Below are positions 5,901 to 25,110 of a stretch of DNA of 64,000 nt, one piece after another. This DNA is from an uncultured Methylococcaceae bacterium (GTDB lineage Bacteria > Pseudomonadota > Gammaproteobacteria > Methylococcales > UBA1147): positions 19,714-83,713 of the forward strand of contig CAZUGA010000017.1 of assembly GCA_964619885.1 (NCBI GenBank), in the 5' to 3' direction. How positions within the stretch are numbered: the first letter of the stretch is position 1; each line of letters starts with the position of its first letter. The notes under the pieces are model-generated. The model was not told the origin of the DNA. It saw only the letters and a program-made list of their open reading frames with translations, and did no database searches. A program made the translations under genes and the position numbers.

Positions 5901-6142
5901 ATCGCTTCCTCGATACGCCGGTTGATAATTTCTTCGACTTCGTCCGGATTAGAACCTGGGTAGGGGACATTGATGGTAATTGTGCGAGGATCAACTTCCG
6001 GGAAGATTTCCACAGTAGTTGATAACATCGTTATGATGCCGCTTAACAGTAAAAACACCATCAGAAGGTTCGATGCGATATGGTTGTGGGCGAACCAAGC
6101 CAATATTCCCTTGTGTTCAGTCGCTATGCGTGTTTCTTTCAT
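2957..6142 (-). CDS. RND family efflux transporter permease (AcrB/CzcA-like)
   Basis: 1061 aa with 12-TM RND topology and large periplasmic loops. The 4-bp overlap with the upstream MFP gene is typical of an operon. Confidence 0.9.
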   Translation of the reverse strand: MKETRIATEHKGILAWFAHNHIASNLLMVFLLLSGIITMLSTTVEIFPEVDPRTITINVPYPGSNPDEVEEIINRRIEEAITGIEGIEKIRSVAAEGAGTVTAELEDDANDRTVLDDIKSAVEQIQNFPPEDADAPEIKDTSTISSVITIAIYGQASERSLHELAYRIRDEITALDGISIANVRGIRDYEIGVEVSEHALREHRIRFEDVAAAVRNFSVKLSGGTIHSKNQEILLRADGQAYNSEDFESIILRTNTDGTILRLGDIGQAVDGFEDIDQTNLFNGQPAAFISVSRVGNQQVLEIEETVKEYVKNLPLPQGIQSTIWSNRAENLRDRIDLLVRNGLMGLVLVFGVLVLFLNLRLAFWTTMGIPISFLGAFLLIHMAGATINMITLFAFILVLGIVVDDAIIVGENIYAKREQGRTPLAAAVEGLHDVITPVSVGILTTILAFVPLLFTSGFLGKILWVIPIVVISVLMMSLIEASLILPAHLSNVRMTQSTGALPWVQEKFRSLLLRGIDRFYTPALKLTMKQPYVVVAIAASILMLAVGSIAGGHLKSIYFPHIEGDNIAAKLRMPSGTPTSETEVIIKHMLDAAEQTRREYDERMPPDSPPIIRNISATVGSTPFSGRGGPGAQGDSSKGTHLGEVKIELLRGELRPFKASTIESDWRNRVGDIPGAEITFNSNILSAGDDINVELAHADFDQLLIAADRLKTAMGDSPGVVEITDSFEIGKPELRLALKDTGIAAGLTLNDLARQVRQAFYGAEAQRVQRGRDDLRVLVRYSESERRSLETLYRMRIRLSNGDEVPFHTVASVSESRGYATINRADRRRVVNISAKVDDETGNANEINAFLRDHVLSKLQRDMPGLYFSFEGAEKERMDSLKSLAKALVVALIAIFAVLAIQLGSYTQPLIIMSVIPLGFVGAAIGHWVLGYPISFFSMFGLVALSGVVVNDSLILMDMINRLRKNGLSVRSAVLAAGQRRFRPIFFTTLTTCVGLAPIISEKSLQAQFLIPMAISLAFGVAFATLITLFVVPALYIIRSQIGGYLHQFSHGHITSEELL

Positions 6143-7320
6143 AGCGGGTTATTTTGCGTTCGGATTTGCATTCCATCGGTGACGACTTCGAGCTGACTGG
6201 TGATGACTGTTGTGCCGCTATTAAGGCCTTTGATATATAATTCGCTATCGGACTGATAAACGATATCCGGTTTTATAAAGCGTAACCGTCCATCTTCCGC
6301 GATCCACAATGTGTTATCACCGCGCAATGTAGATTTTGGTATTACGGTAATGTCTGATAATTGTTTGGCCTTGATCTCCACATCGACGAACAAGCCCGGT
6401 ATGACCTTATTTTTCAGCGGGGCAGGGATATCTTCTGATTCCAGCTTGATAACCACGCGAACCATACGCGATAAACTGTCGATTTCGCTTTCAATTCGAT
6501 CGACTTTTCCCGGAAGCCGGTATGTTGTTCCCGCCATTGAAATCTTAATGATGACCTCGCTACCGTCGGTTTTATTATTGTGGCCAGGTGTTTGAATCAA
6601 CGCCAAATCATCCAATTCAAGTGGGATCGGAATTTCTAATATTTCGTCACTGAAAACAACCCCGACGGGTTGATTTGCGACCATAACTTCGCCGACGTCA
6701 ACCGAGCTTTGAACGACCCGTCCGGCAAACGGCATGCGGATTCTGGTGCGCTTTAAATCGAGGGACGCTTGTTGCAGTTTGGCTTCCGCGGCTTTGATAT
6801 TGGCGCGGGCTTCAGCGATCTGGGGTTGCCGTGCAACAATAGGTGGAATTTTCTCCTTCGGATGAAGGGTAAACCATTCCTGTTGGGATACGGTAGCCTG
6901 CGCGGTTTCTACCTCAAATTTCTTCTTGGCTGCAGCAACTTCGGCTTTATTGCGCGTGACAGCCAATTCGTAGTCGATGCGCTCAATTTCCAGCAATACC
7001 TCGTCGGCCTTAAATCGACCGCCGGCGCGCAGCTCCGGGTGAGCCCGCACGACGCGGCCGCCGACTTGAGGAATGATATTAACCCGGACCCGAGGTACAA
7101 GGGTGCCGTTACCTTGGATAAGCAGCGTTCTATCTTCAATTTTGCTGGATAAAGTTTTGACTAGCGGTGCATATATTTTGCGCTCGGTCGCTTTGGGTTC
7201 TTCATTAAACATGGATAAACCCATTGCGCCGAAAAAACCGAATAGCAGGATCATGACGACCAACAAGGGTTGGATGACCCATCGATAACTTGCTCTAAGC
7301 TTGGAAGATCTATTGCTCAT
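6139..7320 (-). CDS. efflux RND transporter periplasmic adaptor subunit (membrane fusion protein)
   Basis: N-terminal TM/signal anchor plus HlyD-like coiled-coil and beta-barrel segments. Immediately upstream of the RND pump. Confidence 0.85.
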   Translation of the reverse strand: MSNRSSKLRASYRWVIQPLLVVMILLFGFFGAMGLSMFNEEPKATERKIYAPLVKTLSSKIEDRTLLIQGNGTLVPRVRVNIIPQVGGRVVRAHPELRAGGRFKADEVLLEIERIDYELAVTRNKAEVAAAKKKFEVETAQATVSQQEWFTLHPKEKIPPIVARQPQIAEARANIKAAEAKLQQASLDLKRTRIRMPFAGRVVQSSVDVGEVMVANQPVGVVFSDEILEIPIPLELDDLALIQTPGHNNKTDGSEVIIKISMAGTTYRLPGKVDRIESEIDSLSRMVRVVIKLESEDIPAPLKNKVIPGLFVDVEIKAKQLSDITVIPKSTLRGDNTLWIAEDGRLRFIKPDIVYQSDSELYIKGLNSGTTVITSQLEVVTDGMQIRTQNNPL

Positions 7321-7429
7321 GTAGAAACCTTGGAAGGATCAGGGATAGCCGTTTTAGGCAGAGTACGCCTCGGGATCGAGGTTAATAATTTTCGCACCGT
7401 ATTAGCGATCACTGTTTTAGGCATAGTTA

Positions 7430-8059
7430 TCATTTTGAACTGTCAATATCTTGATCCTCGGCACGAAGTCCAGCCAGGCTGACCATTGCAATATGTTGGG
7501 CCAATGTTTCGACCTTCTGTTCGTTTAGCTCTATATCCGGGTACAACCGTGTGATTATAGGTTTGCCAAGCCGATACAGATTGCATTGGCCAATGATGCT
7601 GAAACAATGCCGCCGGATCATATCTTCGGTTGCGTTTTCTGGTAACAACGCGGATACGATGCAGCGAAGCTTCATATGCGTTGGGCGGATCAATTTTTCG
7701 ACCACCTTGTCCAGCACCGGGCTGGGTTGAAGCATTTCCTGCATGTGGATCTGATCCATCAGGGATTCGCGGTCGAAGCCCAGGCTTAAATGTAAAAACC
7801 AATAGACAAACGCACGAAGTTGTTCTTTCGGGTCCTTGGACACGGTCGAAAAATTTGGTTGCTGATCGCGGGTTTGCTCCAGTCCATAGACAACCACCTC
7901 GGCGTAGAAATTGGCTTTGTCGCGAAAATGATAGTTGATCGCCGCTATGTTAGTACCGGCGCGATCAACGATTTCCTGGATGGTTGCCGCACGGTAACCT
8001 TGTTCGGCAAACACATCCAATGCGGTTTTCAATAATTTTTCTCGTGTGTCCTTGGCCAT
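7430..8059 (-). CDS. TetR/AcrR family transcriptional regulator
   Basis: N-terminal TetR HTH (LLKTALDVFAEQGYRAATIQEIVDRAGTNIAAINYHF). First gene of the efflux operon. Confidence 0.85.
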   Translation of the reverse strand: MAKDTREKLLKTALDVFAEQGYRAATIQEIVDRAGTNIAAINYHFRDKANFYAEVVVYGLEQTRDQQPNFSTVSKDPKEQLRAFVYWFLHLSLGFDRESLMDQIHMQEMLQPSPVLDKVVEKLIRPTHMKLRCIVSALLPENATEDMIRRHCFSIIGQCNLYRLGKPIITRLYPDIELNEQKVETLAQHIAMVSLAGLRAEDQDIDSSK

Positions 8060-15362: not shown

Positions 15363-17336
15363 GTGGCCAAAAAATATGCGTTACTGGTTGGAACCGATCG
15401 ATATGAGGACCGCGGCTTCTCACCGCTAACCGTCCCTCGCGCCGACGTCGCAGCGCTAAAAAATGTATTGACGGATCCGCAGATTGGCGGTTTTGATCAG
15501 GTCGATACACTGTTGAATGGTTCACTCGCCGAGATCATGGAGGCGGTCGGCGAGCTTTTCGGTGACAAATCCAAAGACGATCTTCTGTTACTGTATTTTT
15601 CCGGCCACGGCGCGTTGGATCGTTCGGGCGAATTGCACTTGAGTGTCGCCCAAACCAAGCTCAAACGTTTAAGCACCACCGCACTGTCTTCCACGCTGAT
15701 CAAGAATGAAATGAACCACAGCCGGTCGCGGCGCCAGGTGTTGATCTTAGATTGTTGCTACGCGGGTGCTTTTTCGCGCAATTCCGCGAAATCCAAAAGC
15801 GCAACCGCGGAGCCCGCAGTCACGGAAGCAACCTTCGATGTGAAGGGTTATGGGCGCGAAATTCTGGTGTCGTCATCGGCCACCCAGCGATCCTGGGAAG
15901 GTGATGAAATTATCGGCAACAGCGACAAATCGCTGTTTACCCATTTTCTGGTTCAAGGTCTGGCCGCGGGTGAAGCGGCGCCCCAGGGCGGGTCGGATAT
16001 CACCGTCGGTCAGTTGTACGATTATGTGCACGATAAAGTCGTCGCGGCCAGTCCAGCGGTGACGCCGCAGCGCTGGGCCGAGGCGCAGACCGATTCAATT
16101 GTGTTGGCGCAAAATCCCAAACCGGTGGTCAAAACCACGCCGTTGCCGGAAGATATTTTGAGAGATTTGGACGACGACCGGCCCCACGTTCGCGAGGGCG
16201 CGATACGGGAATTGGGACGGTTGGCGGCGGGTGAAGATCAAAAACGTACTGAAGCCGTGATCGAAGTATTGCGAAACAGGCGGGTTGTGGAGCGGGATAT
16301 TTATGTTCACGAGGCGATCGATGCGGTATTGAGCAAGTTGGAGGCGTCAGCAAATGACGTGGTGGGTGTTGAACAAAAGGATGCAATATCGGCTGAAGAA
16401 TCGGCGGGTCGTCATAGGACCCAAGTTTACCTGTTCATTAGTTTTTTGTTGATCGGGGTGATTGTCGTCTTCTGGAAATCTATAACTACCGACTCCCCAC
16501 CTGATATAGCGCCATCTGTTGTTACGAATCCTAGCGCTGGGGTTCGGACAACGAAAGCCCCACTTGAGGTATCGCCAACCCTTGTCGAATCTTCGAAACC
16601 AGTCGTGTCAGCCAAACGTAAACCGGGAACTGTTTTCCAGGATACCTTGAACGATGGTTCGAAGGGTCCTGAAATGGTTGTCATCCCGGCGGGCAGTTTC
16701 CGTATGGGGGATATTCAAGGTGTAGGTCATAGCGATGAGCAACCCGTGCATAAGGTCACGATCAAGCGGCCTTTTGCGCTAAGCAAATACCCAATCACCT
16801 TTGCCGAATACGACCATTATCGAGAAGCTATCAACAAGCCTAAACCTTCCGATAACGATTGGGGTCGAGGTAATCGACCCGTCATCAATGTTTCTTGGAT
16901 TGATGCAACGGCTTATGCGGCGTGGTTGAGTGATCAAACCGGAAAGCGCTACCGCTTGCCTTCGGAAGCCGAATGGGAATACGCGGCCCGCGGGTGGAAG
17001 GAAACCGAATATTGGTGGGGAGACGAAGCCGATAAGAAACATGCCAATTTTTCTGGATATAATACAACGCCGGTTGATAAATACGCCGCAAATCCGTTTG
17101 GATTGCATGATACTTCGGGGAATGTTTGGGAATGGGTGCAGGATACCTGGCACGATACCTATAAATCGGCCCCAATTGATGGATCTGCATGGTTTGATAG
17201 TGACTCTCGACTCCGCGTGCTGCGTGGCGGCTCTTGGGGCATTGAGCCGGACTTCGCGCGTTCGGCGTACCGGTACAGGTACAGACCGGAGACCTCGAGC
17301 TACTATGTTGGATTTCGCTTGGCCCAGGACCTATAA
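15363..17336 (+). CDS. DGR target protein 1
   Basis: GTG start. Caspase dyad motifs YFSGHG and LDCCYAG, HEAT-like repeats, then the TM segment YLFISFLLIGVIVVFW. The C-terminus carries SUMF1/FGE hallmarks (RLPSEAEWEYAARG, GNVWEWV, RVLRGGSW) and contains VR1. Confidence 0.85.
   Translation: MAKKYALLVGTDRYEDRGFSPLTVPRADVAALKNVLTDPQIGGFDQVDTLLNGSLAEIMEAVGELFGDKSKDDLLLLYFSGHGALDRSGELHLSVAQTKLKRLSTTALSSTLIKNEMNHSRSRRQVLILDCCYAGAFSRNSAKSKSATAEPAVTEATFDVKGYGREILVSSSATQRSWEGDEIIGNSDKSLFTHFLVQGLAAGEAAPQGGSDITVGQLYDYVHDKVVAASPAVTPQRWAEAQTDSIVLAQNPKPVVKTTPLPEDILRDLDDDRPHVREGAIRELGRLAAGEDQKRTEAVIEVLRNRRVVERDIYVHEAIDAVLSKLEASANDVVGVEQKDAISAEESAGRHRTQVYLFISFLLIGVIVVFWKSITTDSPPDIAPSVVTNPSAGVRTTKAPLEVSPTLVESSKPVVSAKRKPGTVFQDTLNDGSKGPEMVVIPAGSFRMGDIQGVGHSDEQPVHKVTIKRPFALSKYPITFAEYDHYREAINKPKPSDNDWGRGNRPVINVSWIDATAYAAWLSDQTGKRYRLPSEAEWEYAARGWKETEYWWGDEADKKHANFSGYNTTPVDKYAANPFGLHDTSGNVWEWVQDTWHDTYKSAPIDGSAWFDSDSRLRVLRGGSWGIEPDFARSAYRYRYRPETSSYYVGFRLAQDL
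17203..17327 (+). repeat. DGR variable repeat VR1 (3' end of target 1)
   Basis: ~123 bp matching the TR at 18834-18958. In the 115-bp core all 18 mismatches are at TR adenine positions. Confidence 0.85.
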
Positions 17337-17410
17337 CCCTTTTCGCTTTGTTCTTTTACTCTTTTTACTTCTTGAATGTTAGAAAATAATTCGAATATAG
17401 TCGTCACAGG

Positions 17411-17770
17411 ATGAGCCAAACCACTCCGCAAGCCATCCATCTATGCCATGAGTTGTTGGGTTGGCTCATCCCGTTGCTGGATAAATTCCCACGCAGCGGA
17501 CGTTTCAGCCTGGGTGATCGTTTGGAGAGTGCGCTATTGGATGTGCTGGAACGTTTGGTCGAAGCCGCCTATACCCGGGCAAATCTCAAAGGACAAGCCT
17601 TATCTTCGGCCAATCTCCGGTTAGAAGTTGCGCGGCAACTATGGCGGCTGTGCTTTGAATTCAAGCTGATCTCAACAAAACGCTATCGTTATGGTGCCGA
17701 ATTGATGGACGATTTGGGACGGCAAATCGGCGGTTGGTTGCGCAGCAGCAGCGCAGGTCGCGCTCGATGA
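17411..17770 (+). CDS. avd: DGR accessory variability determinant (Avd-like)
   Basis: 119-aa helical, basic protein directly upstream of the RT with an ATGA stop/start overlap, a typical Avd position. Confidence 0.75.
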   Translation: MSQTTPQAIHLCHELLGWLIPLLDKFPRSGRFSLGDRLESALLDVLERLVEAAYTRANLKGQALSSANLRLEVARQLWRLCFEFKLISTKRYRYGAELMDDLGRQIGGWLRSSSAGRAR

Positions 17771-18876
17771 AAAGGTTGGGTCAAATTTGGGGAAAAATCT
17801 GTAGTTTCGAAAATTTATGGATTGCCTATAGAAAAGCGCGGCTCGGCAAGACTTTACGGCCCAGTGTCGCCTTGTTTTCCATGAATGTGGAAAAAGAGTT
17901 AATGGTTTTGCAAAGAGAACTCCGCGATGGGAGTTATCAACCTGGGGAATATCGGCTTTTTACGATTTATGAACGCAAACCCCGCGCGATCGCCGCCGCG
18001 CCATTTCGGGACCGCGTTGTTCATCATGCGATCATGAATCTGTTAGAGCCCACGTTGGATCGAAGTTTTATAAACGATTCCTATGCATGCCGCAAAGGTA
18101 AAGGGGTTCACCGGGCGGTCGATCGGTTTCAGCGTTGGGCACAACGCTATACCTATGTTTTAAAACTTGATGTCGAGCAATATTTTTCGTCAATCGACCA
18201 TCCGATTCTCAAGGAAAAATTGCATCGCAAAATAAAGGACCGGTCAAGCTTAGCCTTATTGGAAAAAATAATTGATGCCAGCCCGCAAAATCCTAAACGG
18301 CCATTAGACTTTTTTCGGGGTGATGATCTATTGACGCCGTTGGGCAGGGGTGTGGGCATTCCAATCGGGAATCTTACCAGCCAGTTTTTCGCCAATCTTT
18401 TTCTGGATGATCTTGACCATTTCATTAAGCAGGAGCTGCGGGTAAAAGGATATCTCCGCTATGTTGATGATATGGTTTTATTGGCCGATAGCAAAACGGA
18501 GTTGGCCGAATACCGTGAGATTATTCGGGAGAAATTAGAAGATTTAAGGTTGCGAGTGCACCCGAGAAAAGCGCATATCAGCCGCGCTGTCGACGGGTTG
18601 AACTTATTCGGGTATTTGGTTTATCGGGATTATCGAAGGTTAAGGAACGACAATGGTTATCGATTCGCCAGAAAATTGCGCGGGTTTGCTAAGGCTTACG
18701 AAGTTTGGGAGGTTGATTGGGATACATTGAACAGTTCGGTCCAAAGCTGGATCGGTCATGCCAAGCACGCCGATATATGGGGATTGCGCACAGCGATTTT
18801 TTCTGACATTGTATTTCGCAGGGGACCCGACCCACAAACGAATCCGCGTGCTGCGTGGCGGCTCTTGGAACAATAA
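17767..18876 (+). CDS. DGR reverse transcriptase
   Basis: RT domains with the YVDD box and the DGR-specific motif-4 IGNLTSQ (versus QGxxxSP in group II/retron RTs). The 3' end overlaps the TR. Confidence 0.9.
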   Translation: MKRLGQIWGKICSFENLWIAYRKARLGKTLRPSVALFSMNVEKELMVLQRELRDGSYQPGEYRLFTIYERKPRAIAAAPFRDRVVHHAIMNLLEPTLDRSFINDSYACRKGKGVHRAVDRFQRWAQRYTYVLKLDVEQYFSSIDHPILKEKLHRKIKDRSSLALLEKIIDASPQNPKRPLDFFRGDDLLTPLGRGVGIPIGNLTSQFFANLFLDDLDHFIKQELRVKGYLRYVDDMVLLADSKTELAEYREIIREKLEDLRLRVHPRKAHISRAVDGLNLFGYLVYRDYRRLRNDNGYRFARKLRGFAKAYEVWEVDWDTLNSSVQSWIGHAKHADIWGLRTAIFSDIVFRRGPDPQTNPRAAWRLLEQ

Positions 18877-18958
18877 ACCGAACAACGCGCGTTCGGCGAA
18901 CCGGAACAGGAACAAACCGGAGAACTCGAACAACAATGTTGGATTTCGCTTGGCCCAG
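18834..18958 (+). repeat. DGR template repeat (TR)
   Basis: Non-coding copy of the VR, adenine-rich, translating as NNKPNNARSANRNRNKPENSNNNVGFRLAQ. It differs from VR1 and VR2 almost only at its A positions. Confidence 0.85.
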
Positions 18959-18968
18959 TCTACCTGTG

Positions 18969-18981
18969 CGGCCGAAAGCCG
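18969..18981 (+). other. TR-specific hairpin CGGC-CGAAA-GCCG immediately 3' of TR
   Basis: Lies within a 23-nt insertion present after the TR but absent after both VRs. Confidence 0.35.
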
Positions 18982-19093
18982 GACCTAGAGCCAGGTTGTT
19001 CATGGACAACATGGGAATGGTGCGCAGGTGTCCATGAGCCGGGTTCCCGGTTTCGCAAGGATGGGAAAGACGAATAGTATTGTTAGGAAAACG

Positions 19094-19134
19094 GCAAGCG
19101 GGGCTGGTAGGATTTTTCCGAAGGCCCCGCTTGC
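19094..19134 (+). terminator. 11-bp-stem hairpin (GCAAGCGGGGC...GCCCCGCTTGC) downstream of RT/TR
   Basis: Inverted repeat seen in sequence. A T-rich tract follows ~20 nt later, so this is a possible 3' end of the RT-TR transcript. Confidence 0.3.
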
Positions 19135-19178
19135 ATTACAAAGATGCTTTCGATCTTTTTAATTTTGGGGGTTGGGAA

Positions 19179-19271
19179 GCAGTTTGTTGATTGATCAGAA
19201 CGCGTGAATACGTCCGTGTAAGCTCCGCTGCAACATCCTTGTTGCAGAAGTCTGATCAATCAACAATCTGC
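19179..19271. repeat. nested inverted repeats between TR and target 2 (outer ~21-bp arms GCAGTTTGTTGATTGATCAGA / TCTGATCAATCAACAATCTGC; inner 8-bp hairpin CTGCAACA-TCCT-TGTTGCAG)
   Basis: Seen directly in sequence. Confidence 0.5.
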
Positions 19272-19393
19272 TTGCTTGCCGAATAGATGGATGGCCGTTT
19301 TATATAGATTTATAGGTTGTAAACATTGGGATTACTCGGAAAATTACAAAGACCTGGATTGATTGAGCCTCGGATTGGATACGGAAAATAAAC

Positions 19394-21136
19394 TTGGCAA
19401 AAAAATACGCGCTTTTGATTGGTAATACGGATTACAAAGACGAACATTTACCGCAATTGAGTGGTTCGCTTGTGGATATTAAATCCGTAGCAGCGGTGTT
19501 GAATAATCGGAAAATTTGTGGATTCGATGAGGTCATACGACTGCCAAACCCGACGTTTTCAGAGTCTATGCGGGCTTTGAGTCAGTTATTTGCAAATAAG
19601 ACCAAGGATGAACTGCTATTGTTTTATTTTAGCGGACACGGAGTTAAAGATCACGCGGGCGACTTGTTCTTCGCGATCAAGGAAACCGAGCATGGGTTGT
19701 ATGACGGAACCGCGATCGCGGCGTCACTGCTGAAAAACATCGTTAACAAAAGCGGCTCGCATCGCCAGGTATTGATACTGGACTGTTGCCACAGCGGAGC
19801 CATCACGCAGGGCCTAAAAGGAATCGATACGATGGTGACAACCGATACGTTCGATGTTACAGGCTATGGCTGTGGGATTATTGCCGCAACCCGCTCGCAT
19901 CAATACGCGGCGGATAGTACTGGCAGCGATGAAAGTAGCCAGCGTTCGTTATTTACGCATTTTTTGGTCGAAGGCTTGGAAACGGGTGCGGCAGCGGACG
20001 AAAGCTCCGATACGGTAACCGTCGAACAGCTCTACCAGTATGTCCACAAAAAAGTTACCGAAGTTCGGCCGGGTATGCAACCTGTGTACATCTGCGACCA
20101 ATCGATCGGGCGGATTGGATTGGCGAAGAATCCGCGCCAAGTTTTTAAATTGCCTGAGGATCTAATGAATGATCTGGTGGATGCCAACCCAAGGACCCGC
20201 ATCGGTGTATTACGCGAATTGAATACAATTGTTGTGAAAGGGGATGAGCGGAAGCGTGCAGCAGTACAAAATGTGCTGAGTGCTCGAATGGACGAAGAAC
20301 GTGACCGTTTTGTACACCAGGAGATTGAGCAATTGTTGACGGTCTTGAGCGAAGTCACCGCGGACACTGTTAAACCCGAGCGTATCTCAGTAACTCGTCC
20401 TGAAAATACCGATTCTCTTGACCCGGGACGGGTATTTAGTGATACCTTGAAAGACGGTTCGAATGGTCCCGAGATGATGGTAATACCTGCAGGAAAATTC
20501 CGAATGGGGGATATTTCAGGCAATGGGGATGAAGATGAAAAACCGGTTCACGAGGTCAAAATCGAACGTCTGTTCGCATTGGGTAAGTACCCGGTAAGCT
20601 TTGCCGAATACGATTATTATTGCGACCAGACCGGCGTGGACAAACCCGGTGATGAAGATTGGGGCCGAAATGATCGTCCGGTCATCAATGTTTCTTGGAA
20701 CGATGCTGTTGCGTACATCGAATGGTTGAGGGAACAAACTGGTAAGCGCTACCGTTTGCCTTCCGAGGCCGAATGGGAATACGCGGCACGGGGCGGGACA
20801 GACACAGCGTATTGGTGGGGAGATGAAGCCGACAAAAATCTTGCGAATTTTAGCGGCAAAAAAACCAATCCGGTGAAAAAATTCAAAGCGAATCTATTCG
20901 GCTTACACGACACATTGGGTAATGTTTGGGAGTGGGTGCAAGATACATGGCACGAGAATTATCAGTCTGCTCCATGCGATGGTTCTGCCTGGTTGGACGA
21001 TGAACTTCGACTCCGCGTACTGCGTGGCGGCTCTTGGTACAGTGAGCCGAACTACGCGCGTTCGGCGTTCCGGAACAGGGACGAACCGGAGTACTCGAAC
21101 TACAATGTTGGATTTCGCTTGGCCCAGGACCTTTAG
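19394..21136 (+). CDS. DGR target protein 2
   Basis: TTG start. Paralog of target 1 with YFSGHG and LDCCHSG caspase motifs and C-terminal FGE motifs containing VR2. No TM helix is evident. Confidence 0.85.
   Translation: MAKKYALLIGNTDYKDEHLPQLSGSLVDIKSVAAVLNNRKICGFDEVIRLPNPTFSESMRALSQLFANKTKDELLLFYFSGHGVKDHAGDLFFAIKETEHGLYDGTAIAASLLKNIVNKSGSHRQVLILDCCHSGAITQGLKGIDTMVTTDTFDVTGYGCGIIAATRSHQYAADSTGSDESSQRSLFTHFLVEGLETGAAADESSDTVTVEQLYQYVHKKVTEVRPGMQPVYICDQSIGRIGLAKNPRQVFKLPEDLMNDLVDANPRTRIGVLRELNTIVVKGDERKRAAVQNVLSARMDEERDRFVHQEIEQLLTVLSEVTADTVKPERISVTRPENTDSLDPGRVFSDTLKDGSNGPEMMVIPAGKFRMGDISGNGDEDEKPVHEVKIERLFALGKYPVSFAEYDYYCDQTGVDKPGDEDWGRNDRPVINVSWNDAVAYIEWLREQTGKRYRLPSEAEWEYAARGGTDTAYWWGDEADKNLANFSGKKTNPVKKFKANLFGLHDTLGNVWEWVQDTWHENYQSAPCDGSAWLDDELRLRVLRGGSWYSEPNYARSAFRNRDEPEYSNYNVGFRLAQDL
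21003..21127 (+). repeat. DGR variable repeat VR2 (3' end of target 2)
   Basis: Matches the TR. In the core there are 11 mismatches at TR adenines plus one G to A at 21019. Confidence 0.85.
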
Positions 21137-21888: not shown

Positions 21889-22998
21889 CTAATTGGGATA
21901 AATTGCGGCAAGTTCTTTAACTTTGGTCATGTTTGCGTTGGCGGCAATACCGACCCGCATGCCATACTCGGGATCCGCCTTGTAAAGATACGATGTGATG
22001 ATATTGCGAATTTCCGGGCTTTTGACCTGGACCAAATCGCCACCGAATGCTTCCACTAACGCGTTTTTTGATCGGGCATCGAAGGACTGGTACAAATCCC
22101 CGGCTTGCTTGAAATCCTGGGTTTTGTGGAACGGGATTTGTTGTGTTGAACCGTTTAACGGTGTCGCGCAAGCCTTGTAATCCGCGTGGGTTACCGCGTA
22201 GCCTGCATCGCTTTGGTAGCGGCTGGGAAAATAATTGACGCTCTGCGCTTTGGTGGACGAAAAACCAATGCCGTCTTGAACGCTGATGGCGTGAACCGGC
22301 GAACGGGGTTTGTTGGGTGCTAATTCCAAATGGTTGGCGCCCAACCGGTAGCGCTGCGTGTCGGCGTACGAAAACAAGCGTCCCTGCAACATCCGGTCTT
22401 CCGAGGGTTCGATGCCGGGGATCATATTGCTCGGCGCAAACGCGGCTTGTTCGGTCCATTGGAAGAAGTTGTCCGGTACTTCGTTCAATACCATTTCACC
22501 GACTTTGCGCGCGGGAACTTGGGATTCTGGCCAGATGACCGTGGTATCCAGTGGGTTAAACGCAAACCGACCCAATTGATTTGGATCCATGGTCTGGATG
22601 TACAGATCCCAAACTGGGAAGTTGCCGCGGTCAATATTTTGGTATAAATCCTGGGTCAAATGGTTGAAGTTGGTCGCCTGGATTTTTTCCGCTTCTGCCG
22701 GTGTTAGACCTTTGATGCCCTGGCGTGATTTCCAGGTGAACTTAACATAGCGAACTTGGCAGTCGTCGGTGACGAATTTAAACGCGTGAACCCCGGAACC
22801 GTCCATCTGGCGCAAACTTTCGGGTATGCCCAACGGCGAGTACAAGAAGGTCAACATATGGGTCGCTTCGGGTTTGAACGAGAAAAAATCGAAATAGCGG
22901 TTTGGGTCCTGATTAAAGTCGCGTGACCGCAGAACCCCACCAAATATCGAGTCGGCAGACCGATAGATAGTTTGTTTGTAAAGAACACAAATAGTTCT
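21889..22998 (-). pseudogene. catalase, N-terminally truncated (lacks ~150 aa including distal-His region)
   Basis: Catalase core and C-terminal motifs are present (RLFSYADTQRYRLG, FDRERIPER-like). Similarity extends upstream of the annotated Met to an in-frame stop at 22999-23001, where homology ends abruptly. Confidence 0.75.
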
Positions 22999-23127
22999 TT
23001 ATTATATTTCACGGCCAACATATTAAATGCGCACCTTGCATTTTAAATCGGGTTGTTGTTTGACTTTGAAAAATATTACTATTTATATTCAATAACTTGC
23101 AATATTTGTGCGTGACATTCTGTCAAC

Positions 23128-23144
23128 TTGGCACAGCCTCTGCA
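23128..23144 (+). promoter_or_regulatory. candidate sigma54 -24/-12 promoter TTGGCAC-agcct-CTGCA upstream of GG-leader peptide array
   Basis: The GG and GC elements are spaced 12 nt apart, with one mismatch to TGGCAC-N5-TTGCA. It lies ~85 nt upstream of the first peptide ATG. Confidence 0.3.
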
Positions 23145-23227
23145 ATAACCCAGTCAAGCTATAAACGCTTGGATGTGTTTTAACCACGATTCATTACAAC
23201 GAAACGATTTTATTAGGAGAGCCAACC

Positions 23228-23497
23228 ATGACTACTGTAACGATTAAAGATTTGACCACCGAAAAAGAATTAGACCACAAAGCGATGTCTGAAGTCTCCG
23301 GCGGTAACGCTGCGATCGCAATGGCTGATAGCTTGGGTCTGGGCCTTTTCTTCGCCAGCCCTGTCATTCACAACGTCGCTAACGACCAATACAACATCGG
23401 TTCACAGAGCGCTGTCATCGGCGGCGGCAACCTGATCGGCGACGGCGTATTCGCACCGGTTCAATTTCAAGGTTTGTATCAAAGCAACAACGCTTAA
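23228..23497 (+). CDS. double-glycine leader peptide, bacteriocin/microcin-like precursor (paralog 1)
   Basis: The leader MTTVTIKDLTTEKELDHKAMSEVSGG fits the GG-leader consensus. The core is Gly/Ala/Asn-rich and has no Cys. Confidence 0.7.
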   Translation: MTTVTIKDLTTEKELDHKAMSEVSGGNAAIAMADSLGLGLFFASPVIHNVANDQYNIGSQSAVIGGGNLIGDGVFAPVQFQGLYQSNNA

Positions 23498-23538
23498 TTT
23501 TATTCACTGACTTATTTATTTAACGATTAATTGGAGAA

Positions 23539-23793
23539 ATGACCATGACAACTTTATCGATTACTGATTTGAGCAGCGAAAAAGCATTGGACCGTAAGGA
23601 AATGTCTGAAGTATCCGGCGGCACCGACTTTTCGGCTTTGCTAGCCATCGCTAGCCCGTTTATCACGAATATTGCAAACGACCAGTACAACATTGGCGCG
23701 CAGTCGTCTTTCATCGGCGGCGGTAACTATATCGAAGACGGCGTCTACGCACCGGTTCAAATCCAGTGGATGAACCAAAGCAACAACGCTTAA
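23539..23793 (+). CDS. double-glycine leader peptide, bacteriocin/microcin-like precursor (paralog 2)
   Basis: Leader ...KALDRKEMSEVSGG, with a conserved core motif. Confidence 0.7.
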   Translation: MTMTTLSITDLSSEKALDRKEMSEVSGGTDFSALLAIASPFITNIANDQYNIGAQSSFIGGGNYIEDGVYAPVQIQWMNQSNNA

Positions 23794-23838
23794 TTTGAGT
23801 TATTAATTTTAATTTAACAATTATTTGGAGAAACTATC

Positions 23839-24111
23839 ATGACATTATCAATCAAAGATTTGAGCGTAGCTAAAGAAATGGACCGCAAGGAAATGACAGA
23901 AGTCTCTGGCGGGAACGCTGCACTGGCTATGGCCGGTGGCTTCGGACTGGATATTGCGGCTTTCATCGGTAGCCCAGTGATCCACAACGTCGCTAACGAT
24001 CAGTACAACACTGGCGCACAAAGCGCTGGAATCGGCGGCGGCAACATGGTCGGCGACGGCGTATTCGCACCGGTTCAGTGGCAGGATCTGTACCAAAGCA
24101 ACAACGCTTAA
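23839..24111 (+). CDS. double-glycine leader peptide, bacteriocin/microcin-like precursor (paralog 3)
   Basis: Leader MTLSIKDLSVAKEMDRKEMTEVSGG. The upstream spacer and leader are near-identical to paralog 4. Confidence 0.7.
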   Translation: MTLSIKDLSVAKEMDRKEMTEVSGGNAALAMAGGFGLDIAAFIGSPVIHNVANDQYNTGAQSAGIGGGNMVGDGVFAPVQWQDLYQSNNA

Positions 24112-24156
24112 TTTGAGTTATTAATTTTAATTTAACAATTATTTGGAGAAACTATC

Positions 24157-24429
24157 ATGACATTATCAATCAAAGATTTGAGCGTAGCTAAAGAAATGGA
24201 CCGCAAGGAAATGACAGAGGTCTCTGGCGGAAACGCTGCACTGGCTATGGCCGGCGGCTTCGGATTGGATCTTGCTGCTTTCATCGGTAGCCCGGTCATC
24301 CACAACGTGGCTAACGATCAGAAAAACACGGGCGCACAAGCTGCTTCCATCGGCGGCGGCAACTTAGTCGGCGACGGCGTATTCGCACCGGTTCAGTGGC
24401 AGTCTATGTACCAAAGCAACGTATCTTAA
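24157..24429 (+). CDS. double-glycine leader peptide, bacteriocin/microcin-like precursor (paralog 4)
   Basis: Tandem duplicate of paralog 3, with a ~318-bp repeat period. Confidence 0.7.
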   Translation: MTLSIKDLSVAKEMDRKEMTEVSGGNAALAMAGGFGLDLAAFIGSPVIHNVANDQKNTGAQAASIGGGNLVGDGVFAPVQWQSMYQSNVS

Positions 24430-24452
24430 TTGATTGCCTCAAGCTGTATCCC

Positions 24453-24482
24453 AAAACGGGGGTCTTCGGACCCCCGTTTTTT
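24453..24482 (+). terminator. rho-independent terminator (AAAACGGGGGTC-TTCG-GACCCCCGTTTTTT)
   Basis: GC-rich 9-bp stem, a UUCG loop and a T-run, immediately after the last peptide gene. Confidence 0.8.
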
Positions 24483-24659
24483 ATTGTTGGAAGCCAGTTC
24501 GTAATTGAAAACGGCTATAAAAGGTGGAGATCGACGATCGAAGGAATATAGAGAAAAAATATCGATCGAGACGGACCTCATGGCTCTACATGGTTCTTTC
24601 AGCCAATTATAAAAAGTGGACTTGCGAATATCCAACGGCCTGAGGGATTTCTGGAGGGG

Positions 24660-25110
24660 TAAATTGGATTATTCAACCAGCCGAATGATCTGGTACTTTT
24701 CGGAGGCTGTATACCTCATGTATTGTCCCCCCATCCCCGATCATACATTTTTTAAAGTAGACGGTTCTCCATAGACAGCAGGGTTTTGACTTTATCGGTC
24801 GTCGCTTCTCGAACCGTGTCACGCGTAAGCCGTTTTTCACCTGCTTCAAGCAATTCCTTCGACCAGCAATAGTAAATATTGGTATGACCCCTTCCCAGCG
24901 ACACAGCTCGGCAAGGCTGTCTTCACCCCGAAGACCTTCCAGTACAATACGAATCATTTCTTCAGCAGAATAATGACGTCGCGTGGCCCGACGGATATCT
25001 TGAACGGTTTTTTCTGCGCTGTGTTTCTTGGTCATCATCGTTTCCTCTTTGGGTCAACGATGAACCAAAACTGTCTCTTAGGCAATCAGGCTATTCTGTC
25101 CAACTTGGGC
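24660..25110 (-). mobile_element. IS3-family insertion sequence remnant (orfA with frameshift; orfB/integrase part absent)
   Basis: ORF 24673-25038 encodes an IS3-type OrfA N-terminus (MTKKHSAEKTVQDIRRATRRHYSAEEMIRIVLEGLRGEDSLAELCRWEG). An IS3-like continuation (NIYYCWSKELLEAGEKRLTRDTVREA) appears in another frame. No DDE catalytic domain follows. Confidence 0.55.

What the first reader, a model, noticed from the sequence alone, without database searches (positions are those of the whole stretch)
23228..24429. Tandem array of four double-glycine-leader peptides: candidate microcin/class II bacteriocin-like family with no transporter in cis
Four consecutive ORFs of 84-90 aa share a ~25-aa leader that fits the GG-leader consensus: hydrophobic residues at -4, -7 and -12, Glu at -8, and Gly-Gly at -2/-1. 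An example is MTLSIKDLSVAKEMDRKEMTEVSGG.

The ~60-65-aa cores are Cys-free and Gly/Ala/Asn/Gln-rich. They share a conserved motif SPVIHNVANDQYNxGAQSAxIGGGNxVGDGVFAPVQWQxxYQSNNA.

Copies 3 and 4, together with their spacers, form a recent ~318-bp tandem duplication. Each gene has its own GGAGA RBS.

No C39-peptidase ABC exporter, immunity gene or modification enzyme is visible within the window. This raises the question of where the processing and export machinery is encoded. It also leaves open whether these peptides are bacteriocins, signalling peptides or other RiPP-like precursors.
Basis: partly seen in the sequence, partly recalled or inferred. Interest (0 to 1): 0.7.

Follow-up and report, generated by a model that had tools for sequence, protein, structure and literature searches.

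The report
Satellite operon of double-glycine secreted peptides
Four real small genes form one sigma-54-driven operon of peptides carrying a double-glycine export tag; it is one of several scattered copies, and the matching exporter sits beside another copy, as part of a widespread, undescribed secretion system.

Summary
Four + strand genes (23228-24429) encode 82-90-aa precursors with a 25-26-aa double-glycine leader and Cys-free, acidic, Gly/Ala/Asn/Gln-rich cores, under purifying selection.

They form one operon:
- a sigma-54 promoter (23129-23144), unique in the window;
- an upstream inverted repeat;
- one terminator (24453-24480).

"No transporter in cis" is true for the window but explained. 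The ~1.6-kb module occurs in at least four genomic contexts in the same metagenomes. One copy lies next to an operon for an FHA membrane protein, a HlyD adaptor, a PpiC-type isomerase and a 1027-aa exporter (two cNMP-binding domains, C39 peptidase with catalytic Cys, ABC transporter).

Distant gammaproteobacterial loci repeat this design. They add a sigma-54 activator, a Ser/Thr kinase, a PP2C phosphatase and a TolC-like protein. Sigma-54 motifs sit about 90 bp upstream of their peptide genes.

The leader family (about 100 clusters, at least 8 unrelated core types) matches no Pfam or NCBIfam model, and I found no paper on it.

The exporter architecture matches HetC/PteB of cyanobacteria. The closest characterised cargo is EbfG1-4 (biofilm amyloids) and class II microcins. 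No immunity gene is present in any array, so antibacterial function is unproven. The "recent" 318-bp duplication is old (dS 0.23).

The parts
22913..24537 (+). Portable ~1.6-kb module: regulatory region, four peptide genes and terminator. It is shared with paralogous copies in other genomic contexts.
   Evidence: blastn: window 22913-24528 matches L001 8757-10374 at 92.6%. Window 22917-24113 and 23522-24537 match L011 at 94.7% and 74.8%. There is no other homology to those 20-kb loci. The boundary alignments are A2 and A3. In L016 the homology extends left to 22538.
22980..23000 (+). Inverted repeat AAAGAAC-N7-GTTCTTT, about 140 bp upstream of the -24 element. It is a candidate enhancer (UAS) for a sigma-54 activator.
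   Evidence: Read. It is conserved in contexts A and B. Distant loci carry GTTCGC..GCGAAC or TGTTTGA..TCAAACA inverted repeats at a similar distance. Its function is inferred.
23129..23144 (+). Sigma-54 (-24/-12) promoter TGGCACAGCCTCTGCA.
   Evidence: It is the only match to TGGCAC-N5-YTGCW in 64 kb on both strands (0.14 expected). It is conserved in all paralogous copies. In distant loci, 13 of 24 leader-family genes carry the strict motif 88-115 bp upstream. Those 13 account for 13 of the 17 motifs found in 159 kb.
23154..23172 (+). Stem-loop at the predicted 5' end of the transcript (TCAAGC-N7-GCTTGG).
   Evidence: Found by the terminator-like scan. Most distant loci have a hairpin of different sequence at the same position (CATGAG...CTCATG, z -2.6 to -5.7). 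The window's own hairpin is weak (z -0.6). This is suggestive only.
23228..23497 (+). Peptide gene 1: 26-aa GG leader plus 63-aa core.
   Evidence: The core is 6.4 kDa, pI 4.05, with no Cys, Lys or Arg.
23545..23793 (+). Peptide gene 2: 26-aa GG leader plus 56-aa core. The ORF listing places the start at 23539; 23545 is preferred.
   Evidence: The protein is identical in contexts A, B and C despite synonymous differences (dN = 0).
23839..24111 (+). Peptide gene 3: 25-aa GG leader plus 65-aa core.
24157..24429 (+). Peptide gene 4: 25-aa GG leader plus 65-aa core. It is the tandem paralogue of gene 3.
   Evidence: It differs from gene 4 of the exporter-linked array at only 3 of 270 nt.
24453..24486 (+). 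Intrinsic terminator closing the operon (12-bp stem, T-run).
   Evidence: It is conserved in contexts A and B.
21889..22857 (-). 5'-truncated catalase gene abutting the left end of the module (junction marker).
   Evidence: The Pfam Catalase match covers profile positions 168-383 only. The same catalase-module junction (window 22538-22913) is carried in context D, L016.

Best explanation
What it is. The locus is a single sigma-54-dependent operon of four paralogous genes. Each encodes a precursor with a 25-26-aa double-glycine leader and a 56-65-aa core. The cores are unmodified, acidic, Cys/Lys/Arg-poor and rich in Gly/Ala/Asn/Gln.

Where it sits in the genome. It is a satellite copy of a ~1.6-kb module that has been duplicated to at least four places in the same organism or population. 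The window copy truncates a catalase gene. It was itself re-copied, junction included, to a further site.

How export works. The precursors are processed and exported in trans by machinery encoded beside the home copy of the module:
- A HetC/PteB-type PCAT (two cNMP-binding domains, an active C39 peptidase, ABC transporter) cleaves after Gly-Gly and pumps the core out.
- It works through a HlyD-type adaptor and a TolC-like channel.
- A cytoplasmic PpiC-type isomerase/chaperone and a membrane-anchored double-FHA protein assist.

How it is regulated. All copies are switched on together by a dedicated sigma-54 activator. In relatives this activator is encoded with a Hanks-type Ser/Thr kinase and a PP2C phosphatase.

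Likely role outside the cell. I favour a non-suicidal, mass-produced 'public good': self-associating surface or matrix proteins like EbfG1-4, possibly with microcin-like membrane activity as in MccAB1. I do not favour a classical bacteriocin with cognate immunity.

Shown:
- the genes and purifying selection on them;
- the promoter motif and its conservation;
- the paralogous copies;
- linkage of the leader family to this exporter.

Inferred:
- that all copies share one genome;
- cleavage and export;
- which activator acts;
- the extracellular role.

Rough probabilities: export by this PCAT type 0.85; sigma-54 dependence 0.8; matrix or self-assembly role 0.4.
For: Genes and leader. dN/dS of 0.05-0.4 confirms coding.

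One transcription unit:
- a unique sigma-54 motif;
- no terminator between the genes and one after gene 4;
- spacers of 45-47 nt.

Conservation of the promoter:
- It is conserved across paralogues.
- It lies about 90 bp upstream of 13 of 24 distant leader-family genes.
- A sigma-54 activator gene is adjacent to the PCAT in L007, L020 and L021.

Multi-copy module with sharp shared boundaries in contexts A-D.
- Contexts co-occur in the same samples.
- Contigs break inside the arrays.
- Tetranucleotide correlation to the window is 0.96-0.97 for A, C and D.

Exporter operon beside the array:
- L001/L014.
- Domains: two cNMP_binding, Peptidase_C39 at 4.5e-38, ABC_membrane, ABC_tran.
- Full-length alignment to PCAT1 and ComA. 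Cys is present where HlyB has Tyr.
- The same operon order is found in L007 (69% identical PCAT), L020 and L021. L021 also has an OEP gene.

Kinase and PP2C next to arrays in L007, L009, L018 and L020.

No immunity-like ORF in eight arrays.

No modification enzymes.

Analogues in the literature:
- EbfG1-4 are a co-transcribed four-gene operon of GG-motif proteins exported by PteB, which has a HetC-like organisation (PMC4997328).
- EbfG1-3 form amyloid and act as matrix public goods (PMC9981879).
- HetC carries a cNMP-binding domain (PMC10986499).
- The microcin MccAB1 forms amyloid (PMC13188072).
Against: - The exporter is not in the window. That the exporter-linked contig belongs to the same genome is inferred from co-occurrence, composition and assembly breaks. 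It is not demonstrated.
- TIGR01847 scores fall below the curated cut-off.
- No activator, kinase or rpoN was seen in the window or within 10 kb of the arrays in this organism. The kinase gene beside context A looks N-terminally truncated.
- The matrix/self-assembly role rests on analogy and composition only. Both AlphaFold runs gave no usable model (pLDDT 45 and 42). This neither supports nor refutes amyloid.
- No Pfam curli or Fap match exists.
- Several features also fit bacteriocins: a hydrophobic Gly/Ala-rich N-terminal core segment, a weak TIGR03949 (class IIb) hit extending into the core, and many unrelated core types under one leader.
Confidence: 0.55

Rival explanations
1. They are genuine class II microcin-like bacteriocins. 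The exported cores insert into or cross the envelope of competitors and kill them. Multiple paralogues broaden the target range. Immunity is provided by an unlinked gene or by intrinsic insensitivity.
For: - The cores are 6.0-6.5 kDa, acidic and Gly/Ala-rich. They have a hydrophobic N-terminal segment (Kyte-Doolittle 1.65-1.67 over 19 residues).
- Weak hits to TIGR03949 (class IIb) and PF10439 extend past the cleavage site.
- Export is by PCAT, adaptor and OEP, as for microcins (PMC12219008).
- One conserved leader carries at least 8 unrelated core types. This is typical of toxin diversification.
- The core of the gene 3/gene 4 pair evolves faster (dN/dS 0.41) than the leader (0).
Against: - No small membrane-protein gene lies next to any peptide gene in eight arrays. 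Verified immunity genes are immediately adjacent (PMC12219008).
- The leader is 25-26 aa, not 15-18.
- Several core types are conserved at 55-80% identity across many clusters. This looks more like conserved function than an arms race.
- At least 14 gene copies sit behind strong inducible promoters.
Confidence: 0.3
2. They are signalling peptides. The exported cores are sensed by the periplasmic domain of the linked Ser/Thr kinase, or by the SH3/FGE-sulfatase-like protein. This feeds back through FHA proteins and the sigma-54 activator. The result would be a quorum- or development-type circuit comparable to the role proposed for HetC.
For: - Kinase, PP2C, FHA protein, activator and sigma-54 promoters are linked to the arrays in L007, L009, L018, L020 and L021.
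- The exporter has a HetC-like architecture with regulatory cNMP domains (PMC10986499).
- Gram-positive bacteriocin loci couple a GG-leader pheromone with the same exporter (own knowledge).
Against: - Cores of 56-80 aa present in many paralogous copies are oversized and overproduced for a signal.
- A better candidate signal exists in relatives. It is the short (64-68 aa), differently regulated peptide that always follows PP2C. It was not found in this organism's loci.
Confidence: 0.12
3. They are RiPP precursors whose cores are modified by enzymes encoded elsewhere.
For: - Weak leader-only hits to TIGR04149 and TIGR04497.
- A weak TIGR04500 'peptide maturation' hit for the PpiC-like protein (74 bits against a cut-off of 180).
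Against: - No radical-SAM, ATP-grasp, LanM, YcaO or other tailoring gene occurs in any of about 10 loci.
- The cores lack Cys, and the conserved residues give no modification pattern.
- All the HMM hits fall far below their cut-offs.
Confidence: 0.04
4. The window copy is a decaying, unexpressed remnant left by rearrangement, with no function of its own.
For: It lies between a truncated catalase gene and an unannotated ORF that may be an IS remnant. It is separated from its exporter.
Against: - The promoter, inverted repeat, ribosome-binding sites, reading frames and terminator are all intact.
- Comparisons with the other copies show mostly synonymous change (dN/dS 0.05-0.3).
- Orphan leader-family genes also occur in other taxa (L019).
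Confidence: 0.05

Closest known systems
EbfG1-4 / PteB of Synechococcus elongatus PCC 7942 (PMC4997328, PMC9981879)
   Same: - It is a co-transcribed four-gene operon of small proteins with a GG secretion motif.
- Export depends on the catalytic Cys of a PCAT described as having HetC-like domain organisation.
- No immunity gene or antibacterial activity has been reported.
- The products are mass-produced extracellular 'public goods', and EbfG1-3 form amyloid.
   Different: - That system is cyanobacterial, not proteobacterial.
- The ebfG operon lies next to pteB, whereas here most copies are remote from the exporter.
- Regulation there involves an extracellular inhibitor and SigF. It does not involve sigma-54, an activator, a kinase, PP2C or FHA proteins.
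- No FHA or PpiC partners are described for PteB.
HetC of Nostoc PCC 7120 (PMC10986499)
   Same: - The exporter architecture is the same: N-terminal cyclic-nucleotide-binding domain, active C39 peptidase, ABC transporter.
- The regulatory N-terminal domain is required for function.
   Different: - HetC's substrate is unknown. No GG-leader gene or adaptor gene lies near hetC.
- Here the exporter has two cNMP domains, and an adaptor, an FHA protein, a PpiC protein and obvious GG substrates lie alongside it.
Class II microcins (MccV, MccE492 and others; PMC12219008) and MccAB1 of Acinetobacter (PMC13188072)
   Same: - They are Gram-negative, with cores under 10 kDa that are Gly/Ala-rich and mostly acidic.
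- They have a GG signal and use a PCAT + MFP + TolC type I secretion route.
- MccAB1 shows that such proteins can also be amyloid scaffolds.
   Different: - The microcin signal is 15-18 aa; here it is 25-26 aa, with a conserved extra N-terminal block (MTT.xIKDL).
- Microcins have an adjacent membrane immunity protein. None is present here.
- Microcin PCATs lack cNMP domains.
- Antibacterial activity is untested here.
Gram-positive class IIb bacteriocin loci with a GG-leader pheromone (blp, pln) - own knowledge
   Same: Several GG-leader peptides with unrelated cores share one PCAT. They are co-induced by a dedicated signal-transduction module.
   Different: - Those loci use a histidine kinase and response regulator with sigma-70 promoters, and they pair each bacteriocin with immunity genes.
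- Here the regulators are a Hanks kinase, PP2C, FHA proteins and a sigma-54 activator, and there are no immunity genes.
Threonine-phosphorylation pathway of type VI secretion (PpkA/PppA/Fha1) - own knowledge
   Same: A Hanks-type kinase, a PP2C phosphatase and an FHA-domain protein are encoded with a secretion machine.
   Different: - The secretion system is different (T6SS against a PCAT type I system).
- No phosphorylation has been shown here.
- The resemblance lies in gene content only.

Membership tests
Double-glycine-leader substrates of C39-peptidase ABC transporters (PCAT cargo) | N-terminal leader ending in Gly-Gly, with hydrophobic residues at -4, -7 and -12 | tested here: met
   Read from the translations and alignments A1 and A4: V/-4, M/-7, L or M/-12, GG invariant in 16 diverse leaders.
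Double-glycine-leader substrates of C39-peptidase ABC transporters (PCAT cargo) | Score above the curated cut-off of the leader model TIGR01847 | tested here: not met
   Scores are 14.2, 13.1, 14.5 and 14.8 bits against a cut-off of 15.7. The matches are correctly placed, ending at GG.
Double-glycine-leader substrates of C39-peptidase ABC transporters (PCAT cargo) | Genomic linkage to a PCAT with a catalytic Cys, plus a HlyD-type adaptor | tested here: met
   This is not met in the window. It is met in the 92.6%-identical paralogous array (L001/L014) and in L007, L020 and L021. The Cys is present.
Double-glycine-leader substrates of C39-peptidase ABC transporters (PCAT cargo) | Cleavage after GG coupled to export | not testable with these tools
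   This needs an in vitro protease assay or mass spectrometry of the secretome.
Class II microcins | Secreted core of about 5-10 kDa from a Gram-negative bacterium | tested here: met
   The predicted cores are 6.0-6.5 kDa. The closest exporter relatives are in Methylococcales and other Proteobacteria.
Class II microcins | 15-18-aa double-glycine signal sequence | tested here: not met
   The leader is 25-26 aa with a conserved additional N-terminal block. The criterion is taken from PMC12219008.
Class II microcins | Immediately adjacent small inner-membrane immunity protein | tested here: not met
   No ORF of 40 aa or more with a hydrophobic segment was found in eight arrays, other than the peptides themselves and antisense overlaps.
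Class II microcins | Antibacterial activity | not testable with these tools
   This needs self-inhibition or zone-of-inhibition assays.
EbfG/PteB-type secreted matrix proteins | Co-transcribed operon of several GG-motif small proteins | tested here: met
   There is one sigma-54 promoter, spacers of 45-47 nt and one terminator. Co-transcription is inferred, not measured.
EbfG/PteB-type secreted matrix proteins | Exporter with HetC/PteB domain organisation (cNMP-binding + C39 + ABC) | tested here: met
   Pfam on the L001 exporter. The exporter is encoded in trans to the window.
EbfG/PteB-type secreted matrix proteins | Sequence homology to EbfG1-4 | not tested
The exhaustive profile search found no relatives outside the narrow family.
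EbfG/PteB-type secreted matrix proteins | Amyloid formation or requirement for biofilm | not testable with these tools
   The AlphaFold models are uninformative (pLDDT 45 and 42).
RiPP precursors (TIGR04149, TIGR04497, NHLP/Nif11 types) | Family HMM above cut-off and a linked modification enzyme | tested here: not met
   Hits are 13-14 bits against cut-offs of 25-32. No tailoring enzyme occurs in any locus.
Curli/Fap functional amyloid subunits | Match to curlin or Fap repeat models | tested here: not met
   There is no such Pfam hit at E up to 10 for the window peptides, nor at E up to 1 for 10 other core types.

The most novel reading that the evidence does not exclude
The window peptides would be cargo of an undescribed, widespread proteobacterial secretion-and-regulation system.

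The proposed system:
- A HetC-type type I exporter is built with a membrane-anchored double-FHA subunit and a cytoplasmic PpiC chaperone.
- Cargo genes are fired from dedicated sigma-54 promoters.
- Export is gated by Thr phosphorylation through the linked Hanks kinase and PP2C phosphatase, as type VI secretion is gated by PpkA/PppA/Fha1.
- The FHA subunit may read a phospho-Thr in the near-universal Thr-x-x-(I/D) at the leader's extreme N-terminus.

If so, this system would also supply the missing cargo paradigm for HetC.
Probability: 0.15. Interest if true: 0.85.

Novelty: new variant of a known kind. Interest (0 to 1): 0.58.

Why it matters
PCAT-exported double-glycine peptides are a known kind. 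This variant combines features I found described nowhere:
- a conserved 25-26-aa leader family absent from Pfam and NCBIfam;
- sigma-54 promoters in front of the cargo genes;
- an exporter operon carrying FHA and PpiC partners, with a kinase, a PP2C phosphatase and a sigma-54 activator nearby;
- cargo modules scattered around the genome away from the exporter.

The exporter family is large and highly conserved: more than 1300 homologues at about 70% identity. It is present in cultured Parahaliea, Noviherbaspirillum and Aromatoleum, so the predictions can be tested directly.

It offers a tractable proteobacterial model for HetC/PteB-type exporters. The natural substrate of HetC is still unknown. 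The system also bears on whether 'microcin-like' genes without immunity partners are weapons, building material or signals. Finally, it is a caution for genome mining: orphan GG-peptide arrays can be satellite copies of a system encoded elsewhere.

Tried and rejected
- Exhaustive profile search with the full-length family. Only one true full-length relative (P0008) and three leader-only relatives turned up. The top hit P0007 (2297 aa, 22 stretches) is a repetitive adhesin-like protein matching 'SPVI..Y..DQ..IGAQ' by repeat accumulation. P0012 and P0013 are likewise repeats. All three were rejected as spurious.
- Structure prediction of gene 3 with the family alignment, and of the 102-aa 'type 1' relatives with 21 sequences. 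pLDDT was 45.5 and 42.4, so neither was usable and no fold search was run.
- Curli/Fap resemblance suggested by the GGGN and N/Q patterns. No profile supports it.
- Transposon hypothesis for the module. I saw no terminal inverted repeats or target duplications in the boundary alignments. Context D carries 375 bp of the catalase junction from the window-type context. Spread by segmental duplication or recombination is therefore favoured.
- The ORF at 24673-25038 looked to me like an IS3 OrfA remnant, but Pfam gives nothing at E up to 0.01. This is left unverified.
- Rfam scan of 22800-24700. Only a sub-threshold antisense HtrA-thermometer hit (22 bits against 52), which I rejected.
- Organism identification. 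Exact look-ups of four housekeeping proteins failed. The species-representative genome scan found leader-only relatives in other taxa. Only 'Methylococcales-like gammaproteobacterium' can be said, from exporter identity.
- Literature. Leader strings, and sigma-54 combined with double-glycine, C39 or FHA, found nothing relevant. PMC3262810 is unrelated.
Full report
**1. The observation**

The ORF listing and the raw sequence show four consecutive + strand ORFs: 23228-23497, 23539-23793, 23839-24111 and 24157-24429.
- Their products align over their whole length (alignment A1).
- Each has a leader ending in Gly-Gly: MT(T)xxIKDLxxxKExDxKxMxEVxGG.
- By direct reading, the hydrophobic positions -4 (V), -7 (M) and -12 (L/M) are kept. 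Position -8 is Glu in three of the four.
- The cores have no Cys and essentially no Lys or Arg. Predicted mass is 6.0-6.5 kDa, pI about 4, and 43-52% of residues are Gly, Ala, Asn or Gln.
- Each start codon follows a GGAGA box. For gene 2, the second ATG (23545) gives the same spacing and N-terminus as the paralogues. It is also the start called on a related contig.

Tandem Repeats Finder reports a 318-bp period over 23677-24420 at 88% matches. Genes 3 and 4 differ at 27 of 270 coding positions (dS 0.23). The same pair exists in a paralogous array elsewhere. The duplication is therefore real but not recent.

Nei-Gojobori comparisons between copies give dN/dS of 0.05-0.4. Gene 2 is protein-identical in three contexts despite synonymous changes. 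These are functional coding genes.

**2. Profile evidence for the leader**

NCBIfam TIGR01847 (bacteriocin-type signal) matches all four at the right place. The scores are 13.1-14.8 bits against a curated cut-off of 15.7. Other hits (TIGR03949, TIGR04149, TIGR04497, PF10439) are far below threshold. Profiles alone are therefore suggestive but not significant. The question is settled by gene context instead.

**3. The window has no exporter**

Pfam scans of 30 larger ORFs across the window found no C39 peptidase or bacteriocin-type ABC transporter. The single HlyD_3 hit belongs to a TetR/adaptor/AcrB efflux operon (2957-8059).

The immediate neighbours of the array are:
- on the left, a catalase gene lacking its first ~167 residues (Pfam profile positions 168-383 only);
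- on the right, an unannotated 121-aa ORF, followed by a YifB/ComM-type Mg-chelatase-like ATPase gene.

**4. Where the exporter is**

Homology search finds only a handful of close relatives. Their contigs are informative. The same array occurs in four different settings.
- **Context A** (L001, L014, and the array-truncated contigs L002-L005). Four peptide genes are divergent from an operon encoding four proteins: an 836-aa protein with two FHA domains, a transmembrane segment and a large C-terminal domain; a 455-aa HlyD/AprE-type adaptor; a 264-aa cytoplasmic PpiC-type isomerase with a SurA-N-like chaperone region; and a 1027-aa exporter.
- **Context B** (L011, L012, L015). Three genes lie beside PEGA and GGDEF-EAL genes, a TPR protein, a recombinase and a relaxase.
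- **Context C.** This is the window's own setting (L013 at 98.9% identity, L017 at 99.98%).
- **Context D** (L016). Three genes lie between a sulfatase gene and unknown genes.

The exporter in context A has two cNMP_binding stretches, Peptidase_C39 (4.5e-38), ABC_membrane and ABC_tran. It aligns end to end with PCAT1 and ComA. It keeps Cys in the EEMDCGAACL motif where HlyB's inactive domain has Tyr.

Evidence that the module is a discrete copied unit:
- blastn shows the shared block is sharply bounded. Window 22913-24528 equals L001 8757-10374 at 92.6%. The left end is the same (22917) in L011. Nothing else is shared.
- In L016 the homology continues to 22538, that is, into the truncated catalase. 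Context D was therefore copied from a window-type junction.
- Spread by segmental duplication or recombination fits better than transposition. I saw no terminal repeats.
- Gene 3 of context D is a chimera of the context-A gene 3 and gene 4 types. This indicates recombination between copies.

Evidence that the contexts belong to one genome or population:
- Contexts co-occur in the same samples. Sample 3300009703 holds A, B and C. Sample 3300024344 holds A and D. ERZ27251151 holds A and C.
- Many contigs end inside the array.
- Tetranucleotide profiles of A, C and D correlate with the window at 0.96-0.97.
- Copies differ by 5-8%, whereas the same context is 98.9-99.98% identical across samples.

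I therefore infer, but cannot prove, several paralogous copies in one genome, with one exporter.

**5. A broader leader family tied to the same machine**

A search with a mixed alignment recovered about 100 clusters of proteins of 60-135 aa, all unannotated. They share the same leader but carry at least eight unrelated core types. None hits Pfam or NCBIfam.

Their loci repeat the architecture:
- **L007.** PP2C and a Hanks kinase, then six peptides, then a sigma-54 activator, a PCAT 69% identical to that of L001, PpiC and HlyD.
- **L020.** SH3/FGE-sulfatase protein, kinase and PP2C, then six peptides, then activator, PCAT, PpiC, HlyD and FHA protein.
- **L021.** OEP, FHA protein, HlyD, PpiC and PCAT, then a peptide, then PP2C, a rotamase and the activator.
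- **L009 and L018.** Kinase and PP2C sit next to the arrays.
- **L019.** An orphan peptide gene.

The exporter family itself is large and conserved. It has more than 1300 homologues at E below 1e-50, mostly about 1015 aa and about 70% identical. The closest are in Methylococcales MAGs (75-77%). Others are in Halioglobus, Parahaliea, Noviherbaspirillum, Aromatoleum and Thiogranum. All carry only generic names.

**6. Regulation**

The only match in the window to the sigma-54 consensus TGGCAC-N5-YTGCW is at 23129-23144 on the + strand, 99 bp before gene 1 (0.14 matches expected).
- It is invariant in the paralogous copies.
- In the distant loci, 13 of 24 leader-family genes carry the strict motif 88-115 bp upstream (17 with a relaxed motif). 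Those 13 account for 13 of the 17 motifs in 159 kb.
- Genes without the motif are mostly second genes of a pair.
- About 140 bp upstream lies an inverted repeat, AAAGAAC-N7-GTTCTTT (22980-23000). Relatives have other inverted repeats at a similar distance. These are candidate activator sites.
- The predicted 5' end of the transcript forms a stem-loop (23154-23172). Relatives have stronger hairpins of different sequence at the same place (z to -5.7). This is suggestive of an mRNA-stabilising or regulatory element.
- A strong terminator follows gene 4 (24453-24480).

The four genes are thus one inducible operon. All copies would respond to the same activator in trans.

**7. What the peptides do**

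Export by the PCAT after cleavage at GG is well supported by linkage. The extracellular role is not established.

Points against a classical bacteriocin:
- None of the eight arrays contains a small membrane-protein gene. Verified microcin immunity genes are adjacent (PMC12219008).
- The leader is longer than the microcin signal.
- Several core types are conserved across many clusters.

Points for a non-lethal, bulk-secreted product:
- The only characterised cargo of this exporter architecture is EbfG1-4. This is a co-transcribed four-gene GG-motif operon required for biofilm. Its products form amyloid and act as public goods (PMC4997328, PMC9981879).
- Gene dosage is high, with at least 14 copies, behind dedicated inducible promoters.
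- The composition is low in charge and rich in N, Q, G, S and T.

Microcin and matrix roles need not exclude each other, as MccAB1 shows (PMC13188072). A signalling role fits the kinase/PP2C/activator linkage. It fits the peptide size and copy number poorly.

AlphaFold gave no confident fold for either family.

**8. Comparison and novelty**

The locus works like PCAT cargo, and I file it there. It fails two defining features of class II microcins that could be tested: signal length and adjacent immunity. It matches the testable features of the EbfG/PteB arrangement. Homology to EbfG is untested.

I found no publication on this leader family or on sigma-54-driven GG peptides. HetC's own substrate remains unknown (PMC10986499). 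I rate the locus a new variant of a known kind. The system it belongs to is the interesting part.

Noticed in passing
window 15363-21136: A complete diversity-generating retroelement.
- Reverse transcriptase at 17734-18876.
- Template repeat at 18839-18958.
- Two variable repeats at 17208-17327 and 21008-21127.
- The variable repeats lie at the 3' ends of two caspase (Peptidase_C14) + FGE-sulfatase-fold genes (15363-17336, 19394-21136).
- 17 of 17 and 12 of 13 mismatches fall on template adenines.
   Followed up: yes
window 19394-21136; L007 3835-5298; L009 3472-5622; L018 3487-4788; L020 2384-3715: FGE-sulfatase-fold proteins (with SH3 and/or caspase domains) recur just upstream of the kinase/PP2C/peptide arrays in four distant loci. 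In the window, DGR-diversified versions lie 2-8 kb upstream of the array. This could be a functional link, for example a binding or sensing partner of the peptides. It could also be coincidence.
   Followed up: partly
window 21889-22857 and L016 9314-9690: The catalase gene is truncated at its 5' end exactly where the peptide module begins. A 375-bp piece of the same junction travels with the module to another genomic site. This shows the order of the duplication events.
   Followed up: yes
L007 8760-8960; L018 8426-8620; L020 7370-7564: A short (64-68 aa) leader-family peptide with a distinct hydrophilic core (GGCADxSYLSRSPY...FSWASG) is always the first gene after PP2C. The one copy I checked (L007 8760) lacks the sigma-54 motif, strict or relaxed. 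It may be the signal or regulatory peptide of the system. It was not seen in the loci of the window's organism.
   Followed up: no
L014 346-675 (= L001 1-57, cut): A fifth GG-leader gene (107-109 aa, unrelated Thr/Asn/Gln-rich core) lies just beyond the exporter gene in context A. Related proteins are P0036 and P0056.
   Followed up: no
L001 10445-11710: The Ser/Thr kinase gene next to the exporter-linked array appears to lack its N-terminal lobe. The ORF starts near the activation-loop/APE region and continues into a multi-pass membrane domain. It may be truncated or mis-started.
   Followed up: no
window 24673-25038 (-): A 121-aa ORF whose first ~50 residues look to me like an IS3-family OrfA helix-turn-helix, followed by apparent frame decay. 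Pfam finds nothing at E up to 0.01, so this is unverified.
   Followed up: partly
L011 14274-19655: Context B of the module lies next to a serine recombinase, a NikA-like protein and a relaxase. One copy may therefore sit on or beside an integrative mobile element.
   Followed up: no
window 2957-8059: A TetR(CecR-type)/adaptor/AcrB RND efflux operon. Its HlyD_3 hit could be mistaken for a type I secretion adaptor, but it is not one.
   Followed up: yes
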